Below are positions 1 to 37,467 of a stretch of DNA of 37,467 nt, one piece after another. The stretch lies in the UHGV virus genome UHGV-0220213. The stretch is one strand, 5' to 3'. The stretch's first letter is position 1; each line of letters starts with the position of its first letter. The DNA comes from a virus. A program made the translations under genes and the position numbers. The notes beneath the pieces are model-generated. The model was not told the origin of the DNA and searched no databases. It saw nothing but the letters and a program-made list of their open reading frames with translations.

Positions 1-7
1 GTGCGCT

Positions 8-1996
8 ATGAAAGAATGGTATACAGCAAAAGAGTTGCTCGGTTTGGCAGGTTTACCAAAGCAAGCCACTAACATTACACGTAAGGCACAAAGAGAAGGC
101 TGGGAGTTCAGGCAGGTTGCAGGGACTAAAGGTGTATCATTTGAATTCAATATCAAATCATTCCCTGTCGCATTACGTGCTGAAATTCTGTTGCAACAAG
201 GGAGAATTGAAACAAGCCTGGGCCGTTTTGAAATCGCCCGCCCCACGCTGGAAGCCCATGATTATGATCGTGAGGTGCTGTGGAGCAAATGGGATAAAGC
301 CAGCGATTCCCAGCGCAGACTTGCTGAAAAATGGTTGCCTGCGGTTCAGGCTGCAGACGAAATGCTGAACCAGGGGATTTCAACGAAAACGGCTTTTGCG
401 ACCGTTGCAGGGCATTACCAGGTCAGCGCATCCACTTTGCGGGACAAGTATTACCAGGTACAGAAGTTTGCGAAGCCTGACTGGGCGGCTGCACTTGTTG
501 ATGGACGTGGTGCATCCCGTCGCAATGTTCACAAAAGTGAATTTGACGAGGATGCCTGGCAGTTTCTGATTGCAGATTATCTGCGACCGGAAAAACCCGC
601 CTTCCGCAAATGTTATGAGCGTCTGGAACTGGCAGCCCGCGAGCATGGCTGGAGTATTCCCTCCCGTGCCACGGCCTTTCGCCGGATTCAGCAACTGGAC
701 GAGGCAATGGTTGTTGCCTGTCGTGAAGGTGAACATGCACTGATGCATCTGATACCGGCACAGCAGCGAACTGTGGAACACCTGGACGCCATGCAGTGGA
801 TCAACGGCGACGGTTATCTGCATAACGTCTTTGTACGCTGGTTTAACGGTGATGTGATCCGTCCGAAAACATGGTTCTGGCAGGATGTGAAAACCCGAAA
901 AATTCTGGGCTGGCGCTGCGATGTGAGCGAGAACATTGATTCAATTCGCCTCTCGTTCATGGATGTTGTGACTCGCTACGGTATCCCGGAGGATTTTCAC
1001 ATCACCATTGATAACACCCGTGGTGCTGCGAATAAATGGCTGACGGGAGGCGCGCCCAATCGCTACCGCTTTAAGGTGAAAGAAGACGATCCAAAGGGAT
1101 TGTTTTTACTGATGGGTGCGAAAATGCACTGGACAAGCGTTGTTGCCGGTAAAGGCTGGGGCCAGGCAAAACCTGTTGAACGTGCTTTCGGTGTTGGTGG
1201 GCTTGAGGAATACGTTGATAAGCATCCGGCACTGGCTGGCGCATATACGGGGCCAAATCCGCAGGCAAAACCTGATAACTATGGCAACCGCGCTGTTGAT
1301 GCAGAGCTGTTTCTGAAAACCCTTGCCGAAGGTGTGGCGATGTTCAATGCCAGAACAGGCCGTGAAACAGAAATGTGCGGGGGCAAACTCTCGTTTGATG
1401 ATGTTTTCGAGCGTGAATACGCCAGAACGATTGTGCGTAAGCCAACCGAAGAACAAAAACGGATGCTGTTACTGCCTGCCGAGGCGGTGAACGTTTCACG
1501 CAAAGGCGAGTTTACGCTTAAAGTTGGCGGCTCCCTTAAAGGCGCGAAAAACGTTTATTACAACATGGCATTAATGAATGCCGGCGTGAAAAAAGTTGTG
1601 GTCAGGTTTGATCCGCAGCAGCTACACAGCACGGTTTATTGTTACACCCTGGACGGTCGGTTTATCTGTGAAGCGGAATGTCTGGCACCTGTTGCATTTA
1701 ATGATGCTGCGGCAGGCCGTGAATATCGCCGCCGCCAGAAACAACTGAAATCTGCAACTAAAGCAGCCATTAAGGCGCAGAAACAAATGGACGCGCTGGA
1801 AGTTGCTGAACTGCTGCCGCAGATAGCCGAACCAGCAGCACCAGAATCACGAATTGTTGGTATTTTCCGGCCTTCCGGTAATACGGAACGGGTGAAGAAT
1901 CAGGAGCGTGATGATGAATACGAAACTGAGCGTGATGAATATCTGAATCATTCGCTGGATATTCTGGAACAGAACAGACGTAAAAAAGCCATTTAA
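8..1996 (+). CDS. A: DDE transposase MuA (662 aa)
   Basis: Translation matches recalled Mu transposase A along most of its length; the N-terminal ~60 aa diverge from canonical Mu (D108-like). First gene of the window. Confidence 0.93.
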
Positions 1997-3460: not shown

Positions 3461-3730
3461 ATGGCAAAAGTAATCTTTGAATTTAACAATACAAGAAATA
3501 TTGAGTTTCAGGAAAATGGAGGTTTTGCCGTAAATATGAATGTGCGACTGGAAGAATCCTCACCTGAGGACCAGACCGGGCCACATGATGTAATGGCAGG
3601 CATCATCAAGAGCATGGCTCCTGAAATCATTAAAAAAGCGACCGAGGAGTTGTTGAAATCAGCCAGGGAGCTTGGGCTGGAAGCTGAGGGGAAATTATTC
3701 AGCTATAACCCGAATACAGCCAGACATTAA
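3461..3730 (+). CDS. Early-region hypothetical protein (89 aa)
   Basis: ORF with upstream SD; early-operon position. Confidence 0.6.
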   Translation: MAKVIFEFNNTRNIEFQENGGFAVNMNVRLEESSPEDQTGPHDVMAGIIKSMAPEIIKKATEELLKSARELGLEAEGKLFSYNPNTARH

Positions 3731-3750
3731 TTCGCAAAGGAACGCTGACA

Positions 3751-6173: not shown

Positions 6174-6342
6174 AACATCGTATTCGTGGCTGGGGAAATT
6201 TACCACGGTGAAACAGGAATGCCCGACCTGCGGTAATGAATCCCCTGAATATCTGAAAGAGTGCCCTCATTGTGGCGGGCAGAAATGCAACCACTGCGAT
6301 ATGGGCGACGACACGGCGTGCATGAATTGTGAAGGTGAGTGA
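6160..6342 (+). CDS. Small Cys-rich zinc-ribbon protein (60 aa, four CxxC pairs)
   Basis: Strong SD GGAGGT six nt upstream of the ATG; CPTCG...CPHCG...CNHCD...CMNCE. Confidence 0.6.
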   Translation: MENNETSYSWLGKFTTVKQECPTCGNESPEYLKECPHCGGQKCNHCDMGDDTACMNCEGE

Positions 6343-6343
6343 T

Positions 6344-6655
6344 ATGAATAATGGTGTATTTTCAAAATCAGAAGAGCTTGCCGCCCTGCTGATTGCCGGT
6401 GGTTTGCCGAAAAAAGAAGTGCATGACTTTGTGAATTTTGTATATGAGCCGTCTCATGAAAAAGCTATTGATGAAGTCATGGCGTACCGGTTTGGCATTA
6501 TTGCTGAGTCACTGAGTCCTCACTGGATTATTGAAAATCTCCGCACTATTGCTGATGGTAACGATAAAGTGGCGGCTGTCGCCGCCCTTGATGTGCTGCA
6601 ACGTATGAACCGGGAACTATTCAATCCCGAGTTTCTTTTTAAGAAACGAGGTTAA
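6344..6655 (+). CDS. Early-region hypothetical protein (about 103 aa)
   Basis: SD AGGTGA five nt upstream of the ATG at 6344; last + strand ORF before the coding gap. Confidence 0.55.
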   Translation: MNNGVFSKSEELAALLIAGGLPKKEVHDFVNFVYEPSHEKAIDEVMAYRFGIIAESLSPHWIIENLRTIADGNDKVAAVAALDVLQRMNRELFNPEFLFKKRG

Positions 6656-7033
6656 CCACTGTTTGCCGACGTCTGTTACGAGCGTCATCGGGGCGTCGGC
6701 AAGGTCCTGTTTTATGCGCTCAAGAATGGGTTTTTGATGTAGTGCTTTCGCAAAATCATGACCATCTTGTGTAAGTCTGACACTGGTGCCTGAATATGAA
6801 TATCCGAGGCTTGTTGGGGTGAGACCAATGCTTTTTGCGGTGCCTGTTTCCAGATATCTGTTGCTGATAAAACCATTTTCAACCAGCAACAGAAGATGGA
6901 AAACCAGCTTCTGATGGCTGTCGCTGTGCCGCTGAGAACGATCCCAGCCGACATCTTCCAGTCGAATGAATGCGGTGTCGGCCTCCAGAAAAACATCAAA
7001 TATTCTGGCTATCTCGTCATAATCAATTTTCAT
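6617..7033 (-). CDS. Opposite-strand hypothetical protein (138 aa), function unknown
   Basis: Only ORF filling the ~400 bp + strand coding gap between 6655 and gemA; SD AAGGAA about 8 nt upstream of its ATG on the minus strand; balanced, protein-like composition. Confidence 0.5.
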   Translation of the reverse strand: MKIDYDEIARIFDVFLEADTAFIRLEDVGWDRSQRHSDSHQKLVFHLLLLVENGFISNRYLETGTAKSIGLTPTSLGYSYSGTSVRLTQDGHDFAKALHQKPILERIKQDLADAPMTLVTDVGKQWLTSFLKKKLGIE

Positions 7034-7063
7034 ATCTCATTCCTTAATATGAGAGGTGAGCAA

Positions 7064-7615: not shown

Positions 7616-8001
7616 CGGAAGATTTATTTGGTGATTTGCAGGATGACACCATCCTAGCACATCTTGACAATCCCGCAGAGGATACGTCACGCTTTCCGGC
7701 ACTGCTGGCGGAGCTGAACGATTTACTACGCGGGGAATTGTCCCGGCTGGGTGTTGATCCTGCCCATTCACTGGAGATTGTTGTGGCTATCTGTAAGCAT
7801 CTGGGCGGCGGTCAGGTCTACATTCCACGCGGTCAGGTTCTGGACTCGCTGATTCGGGATTTGCGTATCTGGAATGATTTTAACGGTCGCAACGTCAGCG
7901 AACTGACCACCCGTTATGGTGTCACTTTCAATACGGTTTACAAGGCCATTCGCCGGATGCGACGGCTGAAATACCGCCAGTACCAGCCCTCACTTCTGTA
8001 A
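7612..8001 (+). CDS. mor: Mor, activator of the middle promoter (129 aa)
   Basis: 129 aa; Mor/C-family C-terminal HTH; followed by an intrinsic terminator. Confidence 0.88.
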   Translation: MTEDLFGDLQDDTILAHLDNPAEDTSRFPALLAELNDLLRGELSRLGVDPAHSLEIVVAICKHLGGGQVYIPRGQVLDSLIRDLRIWNDFNGRNVSELTTRYGVTFNTVYKAIRRMRRLKYRQYQPSLL

Positions 8002-8007
8002 ACAGTA

Positions 8008-8031
8008 AAGCCGGTTAATCCGGCTTTTTTT
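8008..8031 (+). terminator. Rho-independent terminator ending the early operon (Mu t9.2 equivalent)
   Basis: Stem AAGCCGG / CCGGCTT with loop TTAAT, then a run of 7 T. Confidence 0.8.
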
Positions 8032-8078
8032 ACGTCCTCAATATCCTGTGATGAATAACCGTACCGGGGGAAATCATC
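8008..8078 (+). promoter_or_regulatory. Candidate middle promoter Pm with Mor-binding dyad
   Basis: By position, between the early terminator and the first middle gene; the terminator dyad could double as an activator site. Exact -10/-35 not assigned. Confidence 0.35.
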
Positions 8079-8297
8079 ATGGGTAAAGGCTGGAATGCAT
8101 CCTTTCATCTTGGCAGACGTGAGCGGCTGCGTCAGGAGGTTTTGCACCGTGTCGCCGGTGGGCCACGGCCTGCGCCCCGCGACTATACCGGTCATGATGG
8201 CACCCACGGCAGTTATTACATGAAAGGCTGGCAGTCAGTTGATATGCCGGAAATTCTTCATCATTGCCTGCTTTACAGGGAGAAACATTATGTCTGA
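8079..8297 (+). CDS. Middle-region hypothetical protein (72 aa, Mu gp18-like position)
   Basis: ORF with SD GGGGGAAA upstream. Confidence 0.5.
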   Translation: MGKGWNASFHLGRRERLRQEVLHRVAGGPRPAPRDYTGHDGTHGSYYMKGWQSVDMPEILHHCLLYREKHYV

Positions 8298-8652
8298 GCG
8301 TTCTGCTCGTCAGTGGCCTGATTTTTTATCGGTGGTATTACTGGCGCTGTTATTGTGGATAAGTCTGTTTTGTGGCTGGCGCGCGCTGATGTTTTGCTGT
8401 GCCTCGGTTTTCAGTGTTGCTTTATGTGTTGCCGCTGATTGTCTGGATGCGCTGATAATGAGCTGCCGGGTGCCTGAACATTTTGCCCGGTTCGTCTGGC
8501 CTCTGACCTGGCTGGGGAGTCTGTCCGGGCTGGGATTAGCCGTGATGGCAGCGTCTCAACTGAAAACGGGTCCTGAGCATGTCATCTGGGCGCTGGCCGG
8601 ATTGCTGACGTTCTGGCTCTCCTTTCGTTTTCGCGCTCGTCTGTTCGGGTAA
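8290..8652 (+). CDS. Multi-pass membrane protein (about 120 aa, Mu gp19-like position)
   Basis: ATG at 8290 in frame of track ORF 8239-8652; several hydrophobic helices. Confidence 0.55.
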   Translation: MSERSARQWPDFLSVVLLALLLWISLFCGWRALMFCCASVFSVALCVAADCLDALIMSCRVPEHFARFVWPLTWLGSLSGLGLAVMAASQLKTGPEHVIWALAGLLTFWLSFRFRARLFG

Positions 8653-8661
8653 AGGGGCACC

Positions 8662-8781
8662 ATGTACAGAAAATTCAGTGATGAATGTTTCGGGCCGTCC
8701 ACGCTGATGAGTGCGATAAAAGTGATTGCCCTTGTGGTTCTGATAACCATCAGTGCCGTGGTGTATCTTTCTGTCTGTTAA
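8662..8781 (+). CDS. Small single-TM membrane protein (39 aa, Mu gp20-like position)
   Basis: ATG 8662 to TAA 8779-8781; hydrophobic stretch IKVIALVVLITISAVVYL. Below the size cut-off of the ORF track. Confidence 0.4.
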   Translation: MYRKFSDECFGPSTLMSAIKVIALVVLITISAVVYLSVC

Positions 8782-8793
8782 CCGGGGGAAAAT

Positions 8794-9216
8794 ATGCAGC
8801 ATGATTTATTTGAACACGATCCGGCAATTCGCCAGTTAATCGGACATATTGATAACATCCCGGCCCCGGAACTGGAATCACGCTGGCCCCGTTCGGTGGT
8901 TGATCTGATTGATGTTCTGGAAAACGAACTGAAACGCCAGAACGTCAGCAATCCCCGTGAGCTTGCCCGTAAACAGGCCGTTGCCCTGTCCTGTTTTCTG
9001 GGCGGGCGGCAGTTTTACATCCCCTGCGGCGATACGATCCTGACCGCGTTACGCGACGATTTGCTTTACTGCCAGTTCAATGGTCGTAACATGGAAGAAC
9101 TGCGTCGCCAGTATCGCCTGTCCCAGCCGCAGATCTACCAGATTATTGCCCGCCAGAGAAAGCTGCATACACGACGTCATCAGCCTGATCTGTTCTCACC
9201 TGAAAGCCAGAAATAA
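8794..9216 (+). CDS. C: C, late-gene transcription activator (140 aa)
   Basis: 140 aa; Mor/C family with conserved C-terminal DNA-binding region. Confidence 0.88.
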   Translation: MQHDLFEHDPAIRQLIGHIDNIPAPELESRWPRSVVDLIDVLENELKRQNVSNPRELARKQAVALSCFLGGRQFYIPCGDTILTALRDDLLYCQFNGRNMEELRRQYRLSQPQIYQIIARQRKLHTRRHQPDLFSPESQK

Positions 9217-9240
9217 CCGGCATCCTGCCGGTTATTTCCT
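9215..9240 (+). terminator. Hairpin after C (possible middle-transcript terminator)
   Basis: Stem AACCGGCA / TGCCGGTT with loop TCC, followed by ATTTCCT (weak U-tract). Confidence 0.5.
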
Positions 9241-9307
9241 GTCACCATAATCCCGCACCTGCCATCTGATTTTTTAGACTGCCATCAGAGCATTTTTTCA
9301 GGGAAGC
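9241..9307 (+). promoter_or_regulatory. Candidate C-dependent late promoter Plys
   Basis: Intergenic region directly upstream of the endolysin gene. Assigned by position only. Confidence 0.4.
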
Positions 9308-9826
9308 ATGATGGCGGGAATACCAAAAAAACTGAAAGCCGCACTGCTGGCGGCAACGATTGCCGGTGGCGGTGTGGGGGGTTATCAGGAAATGACCCGT
9401 CAGTCTCTGATCCATCTGGAAAATATCGCTTATATGCCTTACCGCGATATTGCCGGTGTGCTTACGGTCTGTGTGGGACATACCGGGCCGGATATCGAAA
9501 TGCGCCGTTACAGCCATGCGGAGTGTATGGCTCTTCTCGACAGTGATTTAAAACCGGTTTATGCGGCAATCGATCGTCTTGTCAGGGTGCCGCTGACGCC
9601 ATATCAGAAAACGGCGCTGGCAACGTTTATTTTCAACACCGGTGTTACCGCATTCAGTAAATCAACGCTGCTGAAAAAACTCAATGCCGGTGATTACGCC
9701 GGAGCGCGTGACCAGATGGCCCGCTGGGTGTTTGCCGCAGGCCATAAATGGAAAGGACTGATGAACCGTCGCGAAGTGGAAATGGCTATCTGGAATATCA
9801 GGGGGGCGGATGACCTTCGCCAGTAA
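9308..9826 (+). CDS. lys: SAR endolysin, T4-lysozyme-like glycosidase (172 aa)
   Basis: N-terminal Gly/Ala-rich weakly hydrophobic signal-anchor-release segment (AALLAATIAGGGVGG), then a lysozyme-like domain. Confidence 0.85.
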   Translation: MMAGIPKKLKAALLAATIAGGGVGGYQEMTRQSLIHLENIAYMPYRDIAGVLTVCVGHTGPDIEMRRYSHAECMALLDSDLKPVYAAIDRLVRVPLTPYQKTALATFIFNTGVTAFSKSTLLKKLNAGDYAGARDQMARWVFAAGHKWKGLMNRREVEMAIWNIRGADDLRQ

Positions 9827-10196
9827 AAGTTTACTGCTGGCAGCCGTGTTTGCCGCCGTTCTGTCCGGGGTGTTGTGGCACAGGCTGGACAGCACCCGCC
9901 ACGATAACCAGACGCTGCGCCGTGAATTACAGACGGAGCAACAGGCCCGCAACACGGCTGAATGGTTGTTACACGGTCAGGAACAGACGATGCAGGTATT
10001 TTCCGCTATCCGTGCCGCAAATCGTGCCGCGCGGCTGGCAGACGAGACAGAACATCATGATGCAAAACAAAAAATTACAACCGCCATTACCGGTGACAAT
10101 TGCAGCACTCGTCCTGTGCCTGCCGTTGCTGCTGACAGGTTGCGGGAACTCGAAAAACGCACCCGTGCCATCGGTGGTGATCCTGCCCGAAACTGA
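9810..10196 (+). CDS. i-spanin, inner-membrane spanin subunit (128 aa)
   Basis: N-terminal TM helix (LLLAAVFAAVLSGVLW) then charged, coiled-coil-like periplasmic region; directly after lys. Confidence 0.7.
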   Translation: MTFASKSLLLAAVFAAVLSGVLWHRLDSTRHDNQTLRRELQTEQQARNTAEWLLHGQEQTMQVFSAIRAANRAARLADETEHHDAKQKITTAITGDNCSTRPVPAVAADRLRELEKRTRAIGGDPARN

Positions 10197-10398
10197 TGCA
10201 GAACTGACGGAAGCAACGCCCGTTCCGCCCACGCCACAGCCCCTGACGTGGGGAGCATCCCTTCTCTGGAATGCTGACCTGTTGATGGCGCTCGGGCAGT
10301 GCAACCGCGACAAGGCATCAGTCCGGGAACAGGAGACCCGAAGGAAAGAAATTTATGAACGAAGACCAGAACCGGGCGGTGGCGCTGCTGCTCGCTGA
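10057..10398 (+). CDS. o-spanin, outer-membrane lipoprotein spanin subunit (about 113 aa)
   Basis: Lipobox LLTGC after a signal peptide; starts inside the 3' end of the i-spanin gene in another frame; Pro-rich periplasmic part. Confidence 0.65.
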   Translation: MMQNKKLQPPLPVTIAALVLCLPLLLTGCGNSKNAPVPSVVILPETDAELTEATPVPPTPQPLTWGASLLWNADLLMALGQCNRDKASVREQETRRKEIYERRPEPGGGAAAR

Positions 10399-10549
10399 AC
10401 TCTGGCAGGGGGATACCCGTGATATTCCCCGCCCGGCGGCGTATGACCCGCCTGTATTGTGTGCCGGTTGCGGTCGTGAGCTGCGGCCTGATGTGCTGAG
10501 ACAGCAGCCGATGGCGAACTACTGCCACTGGTGCCGTGGAGCAGAATAA
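10355..10549 (+). CDS. Small protein with CxxC...CxxC (64 aa, Mu gp24-like position)
   Basis: ORF containing CAGCG and CHWCRG motifs. Confidence 0.5.
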   Translation: MNEDQNRAVALLLAELWQGDTRDIPRPAAYDPPVLCAGCGRELRPDVLRQQPMANYCHWCRGAE

Positions 10550-10848
10550 TGGATTTGATTTCAGTTTTAGCGTTATGGCCTTACCTGTTGCCTGTTGTGG
10601 CCGGTGGAGCCGTCTGGGCAATGCGTCGTAGTTTTGCCAGCACTGAGCGTGTGGAGCGTCTTGAAAACCGGATGACCGAAATGGAAACCCGCTACGCCAG
10701 CATCCCTGGCACAGAAGATGTACACGAAATGCGCCTGCGAATTGCAGAGCTGTCCGGCGATATCCGGGTGCTGTCCCAGCGGGTGCAGTCATTTTCCCAT
10801 CAACTGGAGCTGCTGCTTGAAAACGCAGTAAACCGGAGTAATTCATGA
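10549..10848 (+). CDS. Membrane-anchored lysis protein (Mu gp25 releasin-like, about 99 aa)
   Basis: N-terminal TM helix then coiled-coil region; last gene of the lysis cluster. Alternative start at 10531. Confidence 0.6.
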   Translation: MDLISVLALWPYLLPVVAGGAVWAMRRSFASTERVERLENRMTEMETRYASIPGTEDVHEMRLRIAELSGDIRVLSQRVQSFSHQLELLLENAVNRSNS

Positions 10849-11135
10849 TTAACGATATTCTGACCGAAGACCGTCGTCTGGTCATCCTGCGTTCCCTGAT
10901 GGACTGCAATAACGAAGCAAACGAATCCATCCTTCAGGACTGTCTGGATGCATACGGACACAACGTTTCCCGCGATGTGGTTCGCGGCCAGATTGACTGG
11001 CTGGCAGAGCAGCAACTGGTCACCGTGGAAAACCTGCGCGGCTTTTATGTCGTAACGCTGACCTCCCGAGGTCAGGATGTGGCGGAAGGTCGTGCCCGCG
11101 TTGCCGGTGTCAAGCGTCCTCGTCCCCGTGCATGA
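10845..11135 (+). CDS. Mu gp26-like protein (96 aa)
   Basis: ORF overlapping both neighbours by a few nt. Confidence 0.6.
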   Translation: MINDILTEDRRLVILRSLMDCNNEANESILQDCLDAYGHNVSRDVVRGQIDWLAEQQLVTVENLRGFYVVTLTSRGQDVAEGRARVAGVKRPRPRA

Positions 11136-11146
11136 CAGGAGGCGTG

Positions 11147-11722
11147 ATGGACAGGAAAACACGGGGCCGGGCTTCAAAAGTGGATTTACTGCCGGAAAAC
11201 GTACGTAAAACGCTGCATGAAATGCTGCGTGATAAAGCGATCCCACAGGCCCGCATTCTGGAAGAAATTAACGTACTGATTGAAGACGCTGGCCTGCCGG
11301 ATGAGATGAAACTCTCCCGTTCCGGTCTGAACCGTTACGCGACGAACGTCGAGCAGGTAGGCCATAACCTGCGACAGATGCGTGAAATGACGTCAGCACT
11401 GACCGCAGAACTTGGTGACAAGCCAATGGGAGAAACCACAAAGCTGATTCTGGAAATGGCCCGCAGCCAGCTTTTTAAGGCCATGATGCGGCAAATCGAA
11501 AACCCGGAATCTGACGTGGATATTGACCTGCTGAAAAATGCCATGCTGGCGGCACAGCGTCTGGAATCCACGGCAATGTCCAGCCACCGGCGCGAGAAAG
11601 AAATCCGCCAGGCATTCGCAGAAGAAGCGGCAAACGCCGTCAGTGAAGAACTGCGCGGGCAGGATGGCATCAGCGAAGAGCTGGAGCAGCGTATCCGTGA
11701 TGTGCTGCTGGGTAAGGCATGA
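11147..11722 (+). CDS. Putative terminase small subunit (Mu gp27-like, about 191 aa)
   Basis: Perfect SD AGGAGG four nt before the ATG at 11147 (alternative start 11132); immediately upstream of the large terminase. Confidence 0.7.
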   Translation: MDRKTRGRASKVDLLPENVRKTLHEMLRDKAIPQARILEEINVLIEDAGLPDEMKLSRSGLNRYATNVEQVGHNLRQMREMTSALTAELGDKPMGETTKLILEMARSQLFKAMMRQIENPESDVDIDLLKNAMLAAQRLESTAMSSHRREKEIRQAFAEEAANAVSEELRGQDGISEELEQRIRDVLLGKA

Positions 11723-30289: not shown

Positions 30290-31755
30290 TGTTTTATATT
30301 GATAACGACAGCGGCGTAACCGTCATGCCGCCCGTATCCGCCCAGCGTAGTGCTATCGTTCGCTGGTTTTCAGAAGGTGACGGGAATAATGTTATCACAT
30401 GGCCCGGCATGGACTGGTTTAATATTGTGCAGGCGGAGTTATTAAACACGCTGGAAGAAGCCGGTATTCAACCGGATAAAACAAAATTAAACCAGCTTGC
30501 ACTGTCCATTAAAGCCATTATGAGCAATAACGCGCTGCTGATAAAAAATAACCTCAGCGAAATTAAAACTGCCGGGGCATCAGCACAGCGTACAGCACGT
30601 GAAAATCTGGATATCTATGATGCCAGCCTGAACAAAAAAGGACTCGTTCAGCTAACCAGTGCCACTGACAGCCCCAGTGAAACGCTGGCAGTCACCGCAA
30701 AAGCGGTGAAAATTGCGATGGATAATGCCAATGCCCGTCTGGCAAAAGACCGGAACGGAGCAGATATTCCCAATAAGCCGCTGTTTATCCAAAACCTCGG
30801 TTTACAGGAAACGGTAAATCAGGCTTCTGGCGCATTACAGAAAAACCAGAACGGCGCAGATATTCCGGGGAAAGATACCTTCACCAAAAATATTGGGGCC
30901 TGCCGCGCATATAGCGCATGGCTGAATATTGGTGGCGATAGTCAGGTCTGGACAACCGCGCAATTTATTTCGTGGCTGGAGAGTCAGGGAGCATTTAACC
31001 ATCCTTACTGGATGTGCAAAGGCTCATGGGCTTATGCAAATAATAAGGTCATTACAGATACAGGTTGCGGAAATATTTGTCTTGCAGGTGCTGTGGTGGA
31101 AGTTATTGGCACTCGCGGCGCAATGACCATACGCGTTACTACGCCGAGCACGTCCAGCGGTGGCGGAATTACTAACGCTCAATTCACTTATATTAATCAT
31201 GGTGATGCTTATGCTCCTGGCTGGCGACGAGACTACAACACGAAAAATCAACAACCTGCATTTGCTTTAGGGCAAACAGGAAGCACTGTCGGAAATGATA
31301 AAGCTGTTGGCTGGAACTGGAATAGCGGGGTCTATAACGCAAATATTAGTGGCGCATCGACATTAATCCTCCACTTCAATATGAATACGGGGAGTTGCCC
31401 TGCTGCACAGTTCCGCGTGAATTACAGAAATGGCGGTATCTTTTATCGTTCAGCGCGTGATGGTTATGGCTTTGAAGCTGACTGGTCAGAGTTTTACACC
31501 ACAACCCGCAAACCCTCTGCGGGAGATGTTGGTGCATATACGCAGGCAGAATGTAACTCAAGGTTTATTACAGGTATTCGCCTTGGCGGTCTGTCATCTG
31601 TTCAGACATGGAATGGTCCCGGCTGGTCTGACAGGTCAGGTTATGTCGTTACGGGTTCAGTTAACGGAAACCGTGATGAATTAATTGATACAACTCAGGC
31701 AAGGCCAATTCAGTATTGCATTAATGGGACTTGGTATAACGCGGGAAGTATTTAA
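30289..31755 (+). CDS. S: Tail fibre protein S: constant part Sc fused to variable part Sv inside the G segment (488 aa)
   Basis: ORF crosses the left G inverted repeat at 30785-30818, which encodes QNLGLQETVN; C-terminus resembles that of S'. Confidence 0.85.
   Translation: MFYIDNDSGVTVMPPVSAQRSAIVRWFSEGDGNNVITWPGMDWFNIVQAELLNTLEEAGIQPDKTKLNQLALSIKAIMSNNALLIKNNLSEIKTAGASAQRTARENLDIYDASLNKKGLVQLTSATDSPSETLAVTAKAVKIAMDNANARLAKDRNGADIPNKPLFIQNLGLQETVNQASGALQKNQNGADIPGKDTFTKNIGACRAYSAWLNIGGDSQVWTTAQFISWLESQGAFNHPYWMCKGSWAYANNKVITDTGCGNICLAGAVVEVIGTRGAMTIRVTTPSTSSGGGITNAQFTYINHGDAYAPGWRRDYNTKNQQPAFALGQTGSTVGNDKAVGWNWNSGVYNANISGASTLILHFNMNTGSCPAAQFRVNYRNGGIFYRSARDGYGFEADWSEFYTTTRKPSAGDVGAYTQAECNSRFITGIRLGGLSSVQTWNGPGWSDRSGYVVTGSVNGNRDELIDTTQARPIQYCINGTWYNAGSI
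30785..30818. repeat. Left 34-bp inverted repeat of the G segment (gix-type Gin crossover site)
   Basis: TTATCCAAAACCTCGGTTTACAGGAAACGGTAAA matches the reverse complement of 33704-33737 with one mismatch. Confidence 0.9.
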
Positions 31756-31757
31756 TT

Positions 31758-32291
31758 ATGATGCACTTAAAAAACATTACCGCTGGTAATCCTAAAACAG
31801 TGGAGCAGTACCAGCTAACAAAGCAATTTAACATTAAGTGGCTTTATTCAGATGATGGAAAAAACTGGTATGAGGAACAAAAGAATTTCCAGCCAGACAC
31901 TTTGAAAATGGTCTATGACCATAACGGCGTTATTATTTGTATTGAAAAGGATGTTTCAGCAATTAATCCGGAAGGCGCAAGCGTCGTTGAATTACCTGAT
32001 ATTACAGCAAATCGCCGGGCTGATATTTCGGGGAAATGGTTGTTCAAAGATGGCGTAGTGATAAAGCGAACTTATACCGAGGAAGAGCAGAGGCAACAAG
32101 CGGAAAATGAAAAGCAAAGCCTGTTGCAACTTGTCAGGGATAAAACCCAGCTATGGGACTCACAGCTACGGCTGGGCATCATTTCCGACGAGAATAAACA
32201 AAAATTAACCGAGTGGATGCTCTATGCGCAGAAAGTCGAATCTACAGACACCTCCAGCCTGCCAGTAACGTTTCCCGAACAACCAGAATGA
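31758..32291 (+). CDS. U: Tail fibre assembly chaperone U (177 aa)
   Basis: Paralogous to the minus-strand U' (shared N-terminal LKNI..GNPKT..EQYQLTK). Confidence 0.85.
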   Translation: MMHLKNITAGNPKTVEQYQLTKQFNIKWLYSDDGKNWYEEQKNFQPDTLKMVYDHNGVIICIEKDVSAINPEGASVVELPDITANRRADISGKWLFKDGVVIKRTYTEEEQRQQAENEKQSLLQLVRDKTQLWDSQLRLGIISDENKQKLTEWMLYAQKVESTDTSSLPVTFPEQPE

Positions 32292-32319
32292 GAGAAGGCC
32301 CGATATTGGGCCTTAATTT

Positions 32320-32847
32320 TTACTCAGGCTTTTGTGGCCATTCGGGATTTGCTGTATCCACACGGCTGACCAGAACGCTGTAGCGTTCCCATGACTCCAG
32401 TCGTGTGCGTTCCTCATCCGTCGCCATATTCAGCCTGACAGCGCGTTCCAGTGGCTGAATAACGCTTTCAGCTTCAGAAAGCAACGCGACCTTTTGTGAT
32501 TCGGCCTGTTGTTGCTGTTCGTCTGCTGTATAAATCCGCTTAACCACAGTTCCGTCCTTAAACATCCACTTCCCTGAATCATCGGCACGACGATTGGCTG
32601 TTATATCTGGAATCTCAACGACACTAAAGCCTTCGGGATTAAGCGTTGAGGCATCTTTGGTGATGGCAACAATAATATTATTTTCGTCGTATACAATCTT
32701 TATGGTGTCGTCCTGAAAGTTATTTACTTCCTCATACCAGTTTTTACCGTCTTCGGACCATAACCAGATAACATCAAAATTCTTTGTTAGCTGATATTGT
32801 TCTTTTGTTTTTGGATTTCCGGACTTAATATTTTTTAAATGCTGCAT
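32320..32847 (-). CDS. Alternative tail fibre assembly chaperone U' (175 aa)
   Basis: Minus-strand paralogue of U inside the G segment. Confidence 0.85.
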
Positions 32848-32850
32848 AAT

Positions 32851-33703
32851 TTACACCTGTGCGACGTTATACCATGTGCCATTGATGTATTTTTGTATTG
32901 GTCTGAAGATGGCTTCATCATCGCCATCTACTTCACCAATGATTCTTAATCCGGTAATTGCGTGTCCGGCTTTTTCATAACGACCACCACGCGCCATCAA
33001 TTGAACAACACGCGTACCCAGGCGAACATCTTTTACATAGCGTGAATCAAAATTCCCCCAGTTGCTGGGCTGCATCTGACCGTTAACAGAAAATATTACC
33101 GAGTTATCTGTATTTCGCTGGCTATAGAAATGCCATCCTGCCTCATCGCCTAACTCTGCAACTACTGGACGGGTTGAAGCACCCCATAAATTAAACGTTG
33201 CATTCTTTGTGGAGTTGTTGGAGCTGGATAGCGTGAATTTTTTACCATCCCCGGCCTGAATATTTTTAAAAGCAATAGCCACTCCATTCTGAAAGCGGAA
33301 TACACGCTGACTATTAGCATAAACATCCAGAATACCGTCTCCATTCTGTTTAAATCCGGTGTCATTATCACCAAGAACAATAGAGCTACCACCTAACGCA
33401 TTCGTCGAACCAACTCCAAGACTGCCATTAATGACAGCATTAACAAGAATATTTAGTGCATCCCATTTCAGCGTCATCAGGTCTTTTGTTGTGGTGCTCT
33501 GGCGGCTTCTCCATTTGAAATATTCATTGCCGTTGTCGCCTGTTTCAAACCACATGTATGAATCAGTGTCACCATCGGCATCATTTTTAAATCCAATCTT
33601 CGCCCAGTCAGTATTTCGAATCCAGGCAAGGATTGAGTCATTTTCAAAAGTAAGCCCACCGGACAAGGTATCGCCATTTTTTTGCACGGCGTTACCAGCC
33701 CTG
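32851..33703 (-). CDS. Sv', alternative variable part of the tail fibre (no own promoter; fuses to Sc after inversion)
   Basis: Minus-strand frame stays open from 32851 through the right inverted repeat, where it also encodes NLGLQETVN; C-terminus homologous to S. Confidence 0.8.
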
Positions 33704-33737
33704 TTTACCGTTTCCTGTAAACCGAGGTTTTAGATAA
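33704..33737. repeat. Right 34-bp inverted repeat of the G segment (gix-type site)
   Basis: TTTACCGTTTCCTGTAAACCGAGGTTTTAGATAA, reverse complement of the left repeat with one mismatch. Confidence 0.9.
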
Positions 33738-35349: not shown

Positions 35350-35417
35350 TGAAGCGCGAAAGCTAAAGTTTTCGCATTTATCGTGAAACGCTTTCGCGTT
35401 TTTCGTGCGCCGCTTCA
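35341..35417. repeat. Mu right end (attR) with three transposase-binding repeats (R3, R2, R1)
   Basis: TGTTTCATTTGAAGCGCGAAAG (35341-35362), then two opposite-orientation copies ending ...CGTGCGCCGCTTCA at 35417. Confidence 0.85.
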
Positions 35418-35740
35418 GCGAACACAATACACAATGCAGAAACCAGTAGCGTATTGAGCAGGCCGACAATAAAAACGCGTCCGTAAGTGTCGCCTTGCTG
35501 ATAATCAATCAAATGCTGAACGATGCCAAAACCGGCCCCGCGGTCAAGAAAAGCAAATCCTGATGTTATGCCGCGATTACTGAGATTCGTTACAGTGTTG
35601 TGAAATAACCAACCAATAATGCCGACAACAGCAACAACGGCAAGGATCTGGAATAACCAGGCGCGAACCGTAGGGTTGGCAAAAGAGAGTGAGCCTTTAA
35701 CGGTTGAGCGGCGATGAGACATAGAAACCTCGGAAAGCAT
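35418..35740 (-). pseudogene. yhdX: 5' fragment of an amino-acid ABC transporter permease gene (yhdX-like) interrupted by the prophage
   Basis: Minus-strand ORF starts at 35740 with TM-rich permease N-terminus and runs into the phage end, terminating in phage DNA at 35378; only about 107 codons are host-encoded. Confidence 0.7.
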
Positions 35741-35789
35741 AACGCTGAAGAGAGCGCCGCCGTAGCGACGCTCGTTACCTCACACCGAC

Positions 35790-36815
35790 TTAACGCACGG
35801 GCGGCGCGTACTGAATACCGCCGTTATTCCAGAGATTATTTTGCCCACGTTTAATTTTCAGCGGGCTTTCTGAACCTACGTTACGCTCGAAAATTTCCGA
35901 GTAGTTACCCACCTGTTTGATGATGTTAAAGGCCCATTTATTATCCAGCTTCAGATCCTTGCCGTAATCGCCTTCTTTACCCAGCAGATGTGCCATATCA
36001 GGCGTTGCTGGATTAGCCGCTTTTTCATCGACGTTCTGGGAATTGATGCCCATCTCTTCAGCATTCAGCATGGCGAAAAGCGTCCAGCGTACAATCGAGA
36101 ACCATTCATCATCGCCACGACGAACTACCGGCCCAAGCGGTTCTTTAGAGATAACTTCCGGTAAGACAATCCATTCAGCTGGGTTGCTTAATTTGATGCG
36201 CAGGGCATACAGTTGTGATTGATCCGAGGCTAGCGTATCGCAGCGACCAGATTCCAGTGCCTTCGCTGATTCGTCAGAGCGATCGAAAGTCACTGGTGTG
36301 TACTTCATATTGTTTGCCTTGAAGTAATCGGCAACATTGAGTTCAGTATCAGTACCCGCCTGAATACAGACGGTAGCGCCATCCAGTTCTTTCGCGCTTT
36401 TTAGCCCCGCTTTATCGTGCGTCAGGAAGCCAATGCCGTCGTAATAAGTGACGCCAGTAAATGCCATTCCCATCCCGGCATCGCGAGATGAAGTCCAGGT
36501 CGTATTACGGGAGAGCAAATCCACCTCCCCTGACTGTAAAGCGGTGAAGCGTTCTTTTGCAGTGAGCGGGGTATATTTCACTTTCGTATCGTCACCGAAT
36601 ACAGCAGCGGCAACGCCACGACAAACATCTACATCAATACCTGAAAACTTACCGTCAGCATCGGCATAAGAGAACCCAGGTAATCCATCACTGATCCCGC
36701 ATTGCACAAAACCTTTTTTCTGAACGGCATCAAGCGTCGCGCCAGCATGCGCCTGATTTGCAACGGCAAGCAGCACGCTGGCGGCAGCCAGTGTGGCTAT
36801 CATCATCTTTTTCAT
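35790..36815 (-). CDS. yhdW: Periplasmic amino-acid-binding protein of an ABC transporter (341 aa)
   Basis: Signal peptide MKKMMIATLAAASVLLAVANQAHA; solute-binding protein features; upstream of the permease gene. Confidence 0.75.
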   Translation of the reverse strand: MKKMMIATLAAASVLLAVANQAHAGATLDAVQKKGFVQCGISDGLPGFSYADADGKFSGIDVDVCRGVAAAVFGDDTKVKYTPLTAKERFTALQSGEVDLLSRNTTWTSSRDAGMGMAFTGVTYYDGIGFLTHDKAGLKSAKELDGATVCIQAGTDTELNVADYFKANNMKYTPVTFDRSDESAKALESGRCDTLASDQSQLYALRIKLSNPAEWIVLPEVISKEPLGPVVRRGDDEWFSIVRWTLFAMLNAEEMGINSQNVDEKAANPATPDMAHLLGKEGDYGKDLKLDNKWAFNIIKQVGNYSEIFERNVGSESPLKIKRGQNNLWNNGGIQYAPPVR

Positions 36816-37212
36816 AATGCTTCCTGTGAGGCGAAAATTATCGTTATAGGACGTTTGGGAAACGTCTTTTACCTGTCTGTGGCCATCCTCTTATAAGCAA
36901 AAGTAGTGCCAGCTTTTGCGCACGATTTCGCGTCGCAATAAGCTGAGTGTAGACAGGAAATAATAAAAACAGCGCCCCGCAATGGTGCGAAAATGAAACA
37001 TGCGCCACATTTTGGCGCAAAATATTTACGCGTTTTTTACTAAGCAGAATAATGATTGTTAGCGTGAGTATATTTCTGGTGGGATGTGTGAAAGTTAAAT
37101 TGATGCGTTATTTCGAAAGCAGCGAAATAACGTGATATAACATGCTAAATCAGCAGGGAATTACCCAGCAGAATATAGCAATATTTTATCTTATGGAAAG
37201 ATACTGTATCGT

Positions 37213-37240
37213 TAAAAAGAGCGCGGAGCTCCGCGCCCTG
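37213..37240 (-). terminator. Rho-independent terminator of yhdV
   Basis: Perfect palindrome GCGCGGAGCTCCGCGC followed by TTTTT on the minus strand, immediately after the yhdV stop. Confidence 0.7.
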
Positions 37241-37245
37241 TTTAG

Positions 37246-37467
37246 TTATTTCGACAGAGCGATGATCCCCATCGTCAGGCCAGCAACAGCTGCTGCCCCG
37301 CCGGCAATAGCCCCAGCCGTTTCCCAGTTATCCTGAGTCGTGCCTTTCATACAGGTATTGGTGTGAACCAGACGACCCTGGTCGTCATAAACCGGAACGC
37401 AGGGCGAATCGTGAGCACAGCCCGCCAGCAATGCGGTGAGCAATGTCACAGGAATTAATCTTTTCAT
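37246..37467 (-). CDS. yhdV: Small lipoprotein (73 aa)
   Basis: Lipobox LLAGC after a signal peptide; Gly/Ala-rich C-terminal TM segment; start codon is the last triplet of the window. Confidence 0.7.
   Translation of the reverse strand: MKRLIPVTLLTALLAGCAHDSPCVPVYDDQGRLVHTNTCMKGTTQDNWETAGAIAGGAAAVAGLTMGIIALSK

What the first reader, a model, noticed from the sequence alone, without database searches (positions are those of the whole stretch)
9308..10848. Lysis cassette without a recognisable holin
The endolysin has an N-terminal SAR-type segment rather than a cytoplasmic lysozyme. It is followed by a TM-anchored i-spanin, an o-spanin lipoprotein whose start lies inside the i-spanin gene in another frame, a small CxxC protein, and a TM plus coiled-coil protein at the position of the Mu releasin. 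No classical multi-TM holin is evident here; the only small membrane proteins are upstream of C (8290-8652 and 8662-8781).
Basis: partly seen in the sequence, partly recalled or inferred. Interest (0 to 1): 0.4.

Follow-up and report, generated by a model that had tools for sequence, protein, structure and literature searches.

The report
Phage Mu holin-less lysis cassette

Summary
Window 9311-10848 encodes, in one tightly overlapping + strand block, a SAR-type lysozyme, a TM-anchored i-spanin, an overlapped o-spanin lipoprotein, a 64-aa four-Cys protein and a TM plus helical-hairpin DUF2730 protein. No multi-TM protein lies among them.

The window is a Mu-like prophage in an E. coli chromosome. 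This region is 98.7% identical in DNA to phage Mu. gp24 and gp25 are 100% identical in protein, and gp22 differs by one residue (V15A, the allele also found in D108, SfMu and PhiR68_1).

Chamblee et al. 2022 (mBio, PMC9239132) showed for Mu that:
- gp22 is a SAR endolysin and gp23/gp23.1 are spanins.
- gp19, gp20 and gp25 all lack holin behaviour.
- gp25 ("releasin") is needed to free gp22 from the membrane, a dependence conferred by K6 and K7.

Every one of these features is kept here.

The only uncharacterised member, gp24, has a DksA/TraR-type zinc finger but lacks TraR's DxxDxA motif and C-terminal helix. In every relative examined it sits directly upstream of the releasin gene.

Verdict: real, correctly read, already known, low interest.

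The parts
8290..8652 (+). Gene 19 homologue: 120-aa multi-TM inner-membrane protein of the middle operon. It is not part of the lysis cassette and not a holin.
   Evidence: 99.2% identical to Mu gp19, with one substitution, T88A. Annotated in Mu as a 4-TMD N-in C-in protein. It matches only a PHROG of unknown function. Mu gp19 showed no DNP-triggered lethality. The gene is absent from SfMu and PhiR68_1.
8662..8781 (+). Gene 20 homologue: 39-aa single-TM protein of the middle operon. Not a holin or antiholin.
   Evidence: Two substitutions relative to Mu gp20. TM peak of KD 2.77. Mu gp20 showed no DNP-triggered lethality, alone or together with gp19.
8794..9216 (+). Gene C: late transcription activator (Mor family) that turns on the lysis promoter.
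   Evidence: Pfam Mor E=9.3e-34. 98.6% identical to Mu C.
9214..9237 (+). Hairpin terminator that ends the middle transcript. It separates genes 19/20/C from the late lysis operon.
   Evidence: Identical to the annotated Mu terminator at 10383-10406.
9234..9300 (+). Plys, the C-dependent late promoter that drives the lysis cassette.
   Evidence: 65 of 67 nt identical to the annotated Mu late promoter at 10403-10469. Its function is inferred by homology.
9311..9826 (+). Gene 22 (lys): SAR endolysin, a GH24-type lysozyme with an N-terminal signal-anchor-release segment.
   Evidence: Pfam PF00959 E=1e-37. One substitution relative to Mu gp22 (V15A), and A15 is shared with D108, SfMu and PhiR68_1. 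K6, K7, K9, E37, D46 and T52 are all kept. Mu gp22 was shown to be a SAR endolysin.
9810..10196 (+). Gene 23: i-spanin, an inner-membrane-anchored helical periplasmic protein.
   Evidence: PHROG 214 Rz-like spanin E=1.2e-34. N-terminal TM peak of KD 1.93. 96.9% identical to Mu gp23. The Mu amber mutant gives the spherical-cell spanin phenotype.
10057..10398 (+). Gene 23.1: o-spanin, an outer-membrane lipoprotein in the overlapped architecture.
   Evidence: Pfam LysC PF23793 E=4.5e-15. Lipobox LTGC with Cys29. 94.7% identical to Mu_55.
10355..10549 (+). Gene 24: 64-aa soluble four-Cys protein with a DksA/TraR-type zinc finger. It is not required for lysis in the Mu plasmid reconstruction, and its role is unknown.
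   Evidence: 100% identical to Mu gp24. CxxC-X17-CxxC spacing. NCBIfam DksA_like E=0.019. Top Foldseek hits are TraR and DksA chains, none significant. hhalign against a TraR family alignment gives probability 60.6%, E=8.3e-5. It sits immediately upstream of DUF2730 in relatives at 63% and 43% identity.
10549..10848 (+). Gene 25: releasin (DUF2730). An N-out C-in membrane-tethered cytoplasmic helical hairpin that is required to free the SAR endolysin.
   Evidence: 100% identical to Mu gp25. Pfam DUF2730 at 50.4 bits against a cut-off of 24.9. The AF2 model has helices 10-49 and 56-97. The function of Mu gp25 was shown experimentally.

Best explanation
This is the late lysis operon of a Mu-type (Muvirus) prophage in an E. 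coli chromosome, and it works as described for phage Mu.

The activator C is made from the middle transcript and switches on Plys. gp22 is exported by Sec but stays tethered and inactive in the inner membrane through its weakly hydrophobic SAR segment. Two cytoplasmic lysines, K6 and K7, lock it there. gp25, a membrane-tethered and mostly cytoplasmic DUF2730 protein, helps the SAR segment leave the bilayer. gp22 then refolds and degrades the peptidoglycan, and the gp23/gp23.1 spanin complex disrupts the outer membrane.

No holin takes part. gp19 and gp20, upstream of C, are dispensable middle-gene membrane proteins. gp24 is a small zinc-finger protein co-inherited with gp25 and is not needed for the lytic step.

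Shown here: gene content, order, overlaps, family memberships, and near-identity to Mu including every residue known to matter. Taken from published experiments on Mu: the SAR behaviour, the gp25 dependence, and the absence of holin activity. Still unknown in the field: how gp25 acts chemically. The proposals are proteolysis of the N-terminus, charge neutralisation, or a transient channel.
For: - DNA identity to Mu is 98.7% and to D108 98.8% across 8000-11200.
- Per-protein comparison: gp24, gp25, gp26 and gp18 are 100% identical to Mu; gp22 has one change.
- The curated Mu annotation names the SAR endolysin, i-spanin, o-spanin and releasin at the matching coordinates.
- Family hits: Phage_lysozyme 1e-37, LysC 4.5e-15, DUF2730 2.5e-13, Mor 9.3e-34; Rz-like spanin PHROGs.
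- K6/K7/K9 and E37/D46/T52 are conserved, and the SAR segment is 11 of 16 Gly/Ala/Ser/Thr.
- Pm and both terminators are identical to Mu, and Plys is 65 of 67 nt identical. This places genes 19/20 in the middle operon and genes 22-25 in the late operon.
- The whole-window TM scan finds no extra membrane protein.
- All Mu CDS from A to mom are intact apart from three replaced early genes and a divergent tail-fibre S/G-segment region, so the prophage looks functional.
- Experiments on Mu: PMC9239132.
- Natural variants: SfMu and PhiR68_1 lack gene 19. Relative L004 lacks 18-20 but keeps the order SAR endolysin (with KK at 6-7), spanins, gp24, DUF2730.
Against: Nothing in the sequence argues against it. 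The caveats are these:
- Function is transferred by homology. No experiment was done on this prophage.
- gp22 carries V15A relative to the tested Mu protein, and the spanins carry 4 and 6 substitutions.
- Plys differs from Mu at 2 nt.
- No dedicated TM or signal-peptide predictor was available, so topology rests on hydropathy plus the Mu annotation.
- The releasin mechanism itself is unresolved in the literature.
Confidence: 0.93

Rival explanations
1. gp19 (4 TM) and gp20 (1 TM), upstream of C, are the real holin-antiholin pair and set the lysis time. The cassette only appears holin-less because the holin is encoded elsewhere.
For: They are the only other small membrane proteins of the phage and lie within 1 kb of the endolysin. 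Samanta et al. proposed this on the basis of topology, as cited.
Against: - They sit in the middle operon, separated from the late genes by a terminator and Plys.
- They match no holin family.
- For Mu, 19, 20, 19+20 and the whole 18-25 set show no lethality on DNP, and earlier genetics found that both can be inactivated without a lysis defect.
- Gene 19 is absent from SfMu and PhiR68_1, and 18-20 are absent from relative L004.
Confidence: 0.02
2. gp25 is itself an unconventional one-TM holin or pinholin that depolarises the membrane, rather than a specific releasin.
For: It is a small, late-expressed membrane protein next to the endolysin. It also releases SAR endolysins of unrelated phages (abstract).
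Against: Mu gp25, which is 100% identical, does not affect growth and is not lethal after DNP, and DNP delays Mu lysis. Only about four of its residues are periplasmic. Dependence on it is removed by K6A or K7A on the cytoplasmic side of gp22.
Confidence: 0.03
3. The prophage is a decaying remnant, and the cassette is no longer a working lysis system.
For: The window lacks the left end (c and ner lie outside it). Three early genes (7, 14, 54) are replaced. The G segment is inverted and partly different from the Mu reference.
Against: Every Mu CDS from A to mom that has a match is full length with no stop codon, apart from the divergent tail-fibre S gene in the G segment. The regulatory elements are conserved. 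The right end abuts E. coli chromosome exactly at the Mu terminus. Replaced early genes and G inversion are normal variation among Mu-like phages.
Confidence: 0.04

Closest known systems
Phage Mu lysis cassette gp22-gp23-gp23.1-gp24-gp25 (GenBank AF083977.1; Chamblee et al. 2022, mBio 13:e00813-22)
   Same: Gene order, overlaps, promoter and terminator context are the same. gp24 and gp25 are identical. gp22 is 170 of 171 identical, with K6/K7/K9 and E37/D46/T52 kept. The spanins are 95-97% identical.
   Different: V15A in the gp22 SAR segment, which is the allele of D108, SfMu and PhiR68_1. A few spanin substitutions. 2 nt in Plys. None touches a residue known to matter.
Phage D108, SfMu, PhiR68_1 and Yersinia vB_YpM phages (Muvirus relatives)
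   Same: The late lysis operon is the same at 98.5-99.6% DNA identity, with identical or near-identical gp22 N-terminus, gp24 and gp25.
   Different: SfMu and PhiR68_1 lack gene 19, whereas this window, like Mu and D108, keeps it. SfMu gp25 has a slightly different TMD sequence.
Pinholin / SAR-endolysin systems (phage 21 S21-68 with R21; P1 Lyz)
   Same: The endolysin is Sec-exported, membrane-tethered and inactive until its SAR segment leaves the bilayer. Spanins finish the job.
   Different: Release there is triggered by a pinholin that collapses the PMF. Here no holin exists, and release needs a cytoplasm-facing DUF2730 protein. Depolarisation delays lysis rather than triggering it.
TraR / DksA family (F-plasmid TraR, lambda Orf73), compared with gp24 only
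   Same: Small size, an N-terminal helix, and the CxxC-X17-CxxC zinc finger with the conserved Pro. TraR and DksA chains are the top structural and profile hits. The GenBank record of PhiR68_1 already notes 'TraR/YbiI family protein' for its copy.
   Different: The DxxDxA motif needed for TraR action is E-D-Q-N-R-A here, with Asn at the D6 position. D6N weakens lambda Orf73. There is no C-terminal helix, only 4 residues after the last Cys. Pfam PF01258 is not matched at E<=0.1.

Membership tests
SAR endolysin | Muralytic catalytic domain, here GH24 lysozyme with the E-X8-D-X5-T triad | tested here: met
   Pfam PF00959 E=1e-37 over residues 37-158. E37, D46 and T52 are present.
SAR endolysin | N-terminal weakly hydrophobic TMD rich in Gly/Ala/Ser/Thr, preceded by basic residues | tested here: met
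   Residues 6-25 are KKLKAALLAATIAGGGVGGY. 11 of 16 core residues are G/A/S/T, and mean KD is 1.33, below the TM threshold that gp19, gp20, gp23 and gp25 pass.
SAR endolysin | Stays uncleaved and membrane-tethered, and is released and activated by a pinholin or by membrane disruption | not testable with these tools
   Shown for Mu gp22, which differs only by V15A: release by S21-68, chloroform or gp25, and non-lytic alone.
Releasin (DUF2730, Mu gp25 type) | Full-length match to Pfam PF10805 including the N-terminal TMD | tested here: met
   50.4 bits against a cut-off of 24.9. TMD within residues 1-26, followed by RR. 100% identical to Mu gp25.
Releasin (DUF2730, Mu gp25 type) | Encoded in the late operon next to a SAR endolysin whose cytoplasmic N-terminus carries the two basic residues that confer dependence | tested here: met
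   Gene order 22-23-23.1-24-25 downstream of Plys. K6 and K7 are present.
Releasin (DUF2730, Mu gp25 type) | Required for timely release of the SAR endolysin, with no holin-like lethality | not testable with these tools
   Shown for the identical Mu protein: the 25::cam mutant, co-expression of 22 and 25, and the DNP test.
Two-component spanin | i-spanin: N-terminal TMD plus a helical periplasmic domain | tested here: met
   PHROG 214 E=1.2e-34. TM peak of KD 1.93 at residues 4-22.
Two-component spanin | o-spanin: a lipoprotein with a lipobox Cys, encoded in another frame overlapping the i-spanin gene | tested here: met
   Gene at 10057-10398 against the i-spanin at 9810-10196. Lipobox LTGC with Cys29. 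Pfam LysC E=4.5e-15.
Holin / pinholin (tested on gp19, gp20, gp25) | Match to a described holin family | tested here: not met
   No holin family in Pfam, PHROGs or NCBIfam for any of the three.
Holin / pinholin (tested on gp19, gp20, gp25) | Expressed from the late lysis transcript | tested here: not met
   gp19 and gp20 lie upstream of C, the terminator and Plys, which are conserved with Mu. gp25 does meet this feature.
Holin / pinholin (tested on gp19, gp20, gp25) | Lethal hole formation that depolarisation can trigger prematurely | not testable with these tools
   Negative for Mu gp19, gp20, gp25 and for all of them together. DNP delays Mu lysis.
TraR/DksA family (gp24) | C4 zinc finger with CxxC-X17-CxxC spacing | tested here: met
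   C36, C39, C57 and C60. C36, C39 and C57 are invariant in 5 homologues, and C60 is present in 4 of 5. hhalign against TraR aligns the finger in register with probability 60.6%, E=8.3e-5. Foldseek rmsd is 0.6-1.0 A over 29-30 residues of DksA chains.
TraR/DksA family (gp24) | N-terminal helix with a DxxDxA motif that reaches the RNAP active site | tested here: not met
   gp24 reads E3-D4-Q5-N6-R7-A8, and homologues have T or R at position 6. The motif and the D6N defect are described in PMC9239242.
TraR/DksA family (gp24) | C-terminal helix after the zinc finger, and a match to Pfam PF01258 | tested here: not met
   Only 4 residues follow C60. PF01258 is not reported at E<=0.1. NCBIfam DksA_like scores 15.3 bits against a cut-off of 105.

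The most novel reading that the evidence does not exclude
gp24, the small zinc-finger protein, may be more than a passenger. Its stop codon overlaps the releasin start (TAATG), and it stays directly upstream of the DUF2730 gene in relatives down to 43% identity. It could be a modulator of the releasin, and so a candidate part of the missing lysis clock of a holin-less phage. Alternatively it could be a degenerate TraR-like factor that acts on host RNA polymerase late in infection. Published reconstruction shows that gp22 plus gp25 lyse cells without gp24, so at most it would tune timing.
Probability: 0.12. Interest if true: 0.4.

Novelty: already known. Interest (0 to 1): 0.1.

Why it matters
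It adds little that is new. The holin-less, releasin-dependent lysis pathway of Mu was a real surprise when published in 2022, and this window is another copy of that system. The cassette occurs in 41 of 5,426 complete E. coli genomes.

There are two modest additions. First, natural Mu-like phages that lack gene 19, or genes 18-20, give independent comparative support that those membrane proteins are not the holin. Second, gp24 is strictly syntenic with the releasin and carries a DksA/TraR-type zinc finger without TraR's functional motif. It is the one member of the cassette that nobody has tested.

Tried and rejected
- I looked for an overlooked holin with a hydropathy scan of all ORFs of at least 30 aa on both strands. 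It found only gp19, gp20, gp23, gp23.1 and gp25, plus antisense or out-of-frame ORFs inside known genes. The four segments that differ from Mu (3494-3735, 6354-7063, 32905-33423, and 1-195) contain no TM protein.
- I searched gp24 for relatives. The word-index search gave 5 proteins. The exhaustive representative search gave only 3 true relatives plus low-complexity hits to long repetitive proteins, which I set aside. A direct PDB sequence search found nothing.
- I considered calling gp24 a TraR homologue. I rejected full membership because the DxxDxA motif and the C-terminal helix are missing.
- I considered that V15A in the SAR segment might mark an unusual variant. I rejected this because A15 is the common allele and Mu's V15 is the exception.
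- The sigma-70 promoter scan found nothing useful. This is expected, because Plys is activator-dependent.
- No SignalP- or TMHMM-type predictor was available, so cleavage-site prediction was not attempted.
Full report
**What the window is**

A megablast of 8000-11200 against phage records gives full-length matches to Escherichia phage D108 (98.8%) and phage Mu (98.7%). Matches of 87-88% coverage go to SfMu, PhiR68_1 and several Yersinia Mu-like phages. The rest of the window is colinear with Mu. In the lysis region the offset is Mu coordinate = window coordinate + 1169.

The window begins at the start of the transposase gene A. The Mu right end falls at 35417. Positions 35418-37467 are E. coli chromosome in the yhdW/yhdX amino-acid ABC transporter region, found in 5,422 of 5,426 complete genomes. 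The window is therefore a Mu-type prophage with its right junction.

Every Mu CDS from A to mom has a full-length, stop-free counterpart, with two kinds of exception. Early genes 7, 14 and 54 are replaced. The tail-fibre gene S region in the G segment diverges from the Mu reference, and the G segment is inverted relative to it.

**Checking the observation**

- The endolysin is at 9311-9826. It matches Pfam Phage_lysozyme at 1e-37 and has the E37/D46/T52 triad.
- Its N-terminus is MAGIPKKLKAALLAATIAGGGVGGY. This is three lysines followed by a stretch in which 11 of 16 residues are Gly/Ala/Ser/Thr. It is too weakly hydrophobic to pass the TM threshold that gp19, gp20, gp23 and gp25 pass.
- Gene 23 (9810-10196) is an Rz-like i-spanin with an N-terminal TMD.
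- Gene 23.1 (10057-10398) starts inside gene 23 in another frame and runs beyond its stop. It has the lipobox LTGC with Cys29 and matches Pfam LysC at 4.5e-15.
- Gene 24 (10355-10549) encodes a 64-aa soluble protein with CxxC-X17-CxxC.
- Gene 25 (10549-10848) matches DUF2730 above the curated cut-off. It is modelled as a long helix at 10-49 that contains the TMD, a loop, and a second helix at 56-97.
- The genes overlap or abut throughout, with TAATG at 24/25 and ATGA at 25/26.

No multi-TM protein is present in the cassette.

**Identity with the characterised system**

Protein by protein against Mu:
- gp18, gp24, gp25 and gp26 are identical.
- gp22 has one change, V15A.
- gp19 has one change, gp20 two, C two, gp23 four and gp23.1 six.

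A15 is also the residue in D108, SfMu and PhiR68_1, so Mu's V15 is the exception. The middle promoter Pm, the terminator after mor and the terminator after C are identical to Mu. Plys differs at 2 of 67 nt. So genes 18-19-20-C belong to the middle transcript and genes 22-25 to the C-dependent late transcript, as in Mu.

**What is known about that system**

Chamblee et al. 2022 (PMC9239132) showed the following.
- gp22 is a SAR endolysin. It is released by the phage 21 pinholin and by chloroform, and it is non-lytic alone.
- Genes 23 and 23.1 encode the spanins. The amber mutant tested (23.1am) arrests as spherical cells and is complemented by lambda RzRz1.
- gp19, gp20, gp25 and the whole set together show no lethality when the membrane is depolarised with DNP, unlike lambda S105 and S21-68. 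DNP delays rather than advances Mu lysis.
- 25::cam lysogens keep growing and lyse only at about 3 h.
- gp22 plus gp25 suffice for lysis at about 50 min from plasmids.
- K6A or K7A in gp22 removes the need for gp25. Replacing the lysines with arginine (K6R, K7R) leaves the dependence unchanged.
- gp25 also releases SAR endolysins of other phages.

The authors named gp25 a releasin and called Mu the first tailed phage known to lack a holin. The current GenBank record of Mu carries these names. The mechanism of gp25 remains open: proteolysis, charge neutralisation and a transient channel have all been proposed. I found no later paper that resolves it. A 2024 preprint on LambdaSo only cites it.

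**Independent comparative support found here**

SfMu and PhiR68_1 lack window 8294-8662, which is all of gene 19, and join gene 18 directly to gene 20.

A more distant Mu-like contig, L004, has gp24 at 63% identity. It has no counterpart of genes 18-20 and carries an unrelated 124-aa protein with a signal-peptide-like N-terminus in front of C. It keeps the order SAR endolysin (MPGIPKKLKAS..., with KK at 6-7), i-spanin, overlapped o-spanin, gp24, DUF2730. This fits gp19 and gp20 being accessory genes rather than lysis genes.

**The one uncharacterised member, gp24**

The Mu paper does not discuss gp24 (0 occurrences), and the Mu record annotates it as hypothetical.

Its family is very small. 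There are 5 proteins by word-index search and 3 credible relatives in the exhaustive search. C36, C39 and C57 are invariant, and C60 is kept in 4 of 5.

Several weak but concordant signals point to the DksA/TraR zinc finger:
- The CxxC-X17-CxxC spacing.
- NCBIfam DksA_like at E=0.019.
- The best PDB profile hit is an Agrobacterium DksA at E=0.081, aligned in register.
- The AF2 model has pLDDT 72.9. Seven of its top eight Foldseek hits are TraR or DksA chains, with TraR-RNAP 6n57_M first at E=0.068 and probability 0.91. None is below 0.001.
- hhalign against a TraR family alignment gives probability 60.6% and E=8.3e-5 over 31 columns.

gp24 nevertheless fails two features that define functional TraR homologues (PMC9239242). 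The DxxDxA motif reads EDQNRA, with Asn at the D6 position. There is no C-terminal helix.

I therefore file gp24 as a protein with a DksA/TraR-type zinc finger, not as a TraR. Its position directly upstream of, and overlapping, the DUF2730 gene is conserved in relatives at 63% and 43% identity. That is compatible with a functional link to the releasin, or simply with a compact operon.

**Verdict**

The feature is already known and the interest is low. The only loose thread is the role of gp24.

Noticed in passing
window 10355-10549: gp24 has a DksA/TraR-type CxxC-X17-CxxC zinc finger, and its best fold and profile hits are TraR and DksA. It lacks TraR's DxxDxA motif and C-terminal helix. It always lies directly upstream of the DUF2730 releasin gene in relatives at 63% and 43% identity.
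   Followed up: yes
window 8294-8662, compared with L006 (PhiR68_1) and L007 (SfMu): Gene 19, the 4-TM protein once proposed as the Mu holin, is precisely absent from SfMu and PhiR68_1. Relative L004 lacks genes 18-20 and has an unrelated 124-aa protein with a signal-peptide or lipobox-like N-terminus (MNNKRMWLAGIVLATCS...) in their place.
   Followed up: yes
window 6354-7063: A 710-bp segment with no Mu counterpart replaces Mu genes 14 and 54 and the semi-early promoter region. It holds a 108-aa + strand ORF (6329-6655) and a 138-aa ORF on the minus strand (6617-7033), opposite to the whole early operon. Neither has a Pfam match.
   Followed up: partly
window 3461-3730: An 89-aa ORF replaces Mu gene 7 in the semi-essential early region. 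Its only match is a sub-threshold RraB-like hit (E=0.0097).
   Followed up: partly
window 30785-33737: The invertible G segment is in the opposite orientation to the Mu reference. Part of it (32905-33423, and the S-type fibre C-terminus) diverges from Mu, with the S product only 79% identical over its first 246 aa. This suggests a different host-range variant.
   Followed up: partly
window 35418-37467: The Mu right end at 35417 abuts E. coli chromosome in the yhdW/yhdX amino-acid ABC transporter region. The host flank is 100% identical to several human isolates. The 120-aa 2-TM ORF at 35378-35740 (minus strand) overlaps a host gene annotated 'membrane protein' and spans the junction. Its coding region may be altered by the insertion.
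   Followed up: partly
L004 742-924: The distant Mu-like relative encodes a 60-aa two-TM protein in its early region, between a Gp11_C-like gene and GemA. It has no counterpart in this window. Its topology is holin-like, but it lies in the early region.
   Followed up: no
window 1-195: The N-terminal part of transposase A matches D108 rather than Mu (no Mu match for 1-195, and 93% protein identity overall). This is consistent with the known D108-type operator-binding domain variant.
   Followed up: no
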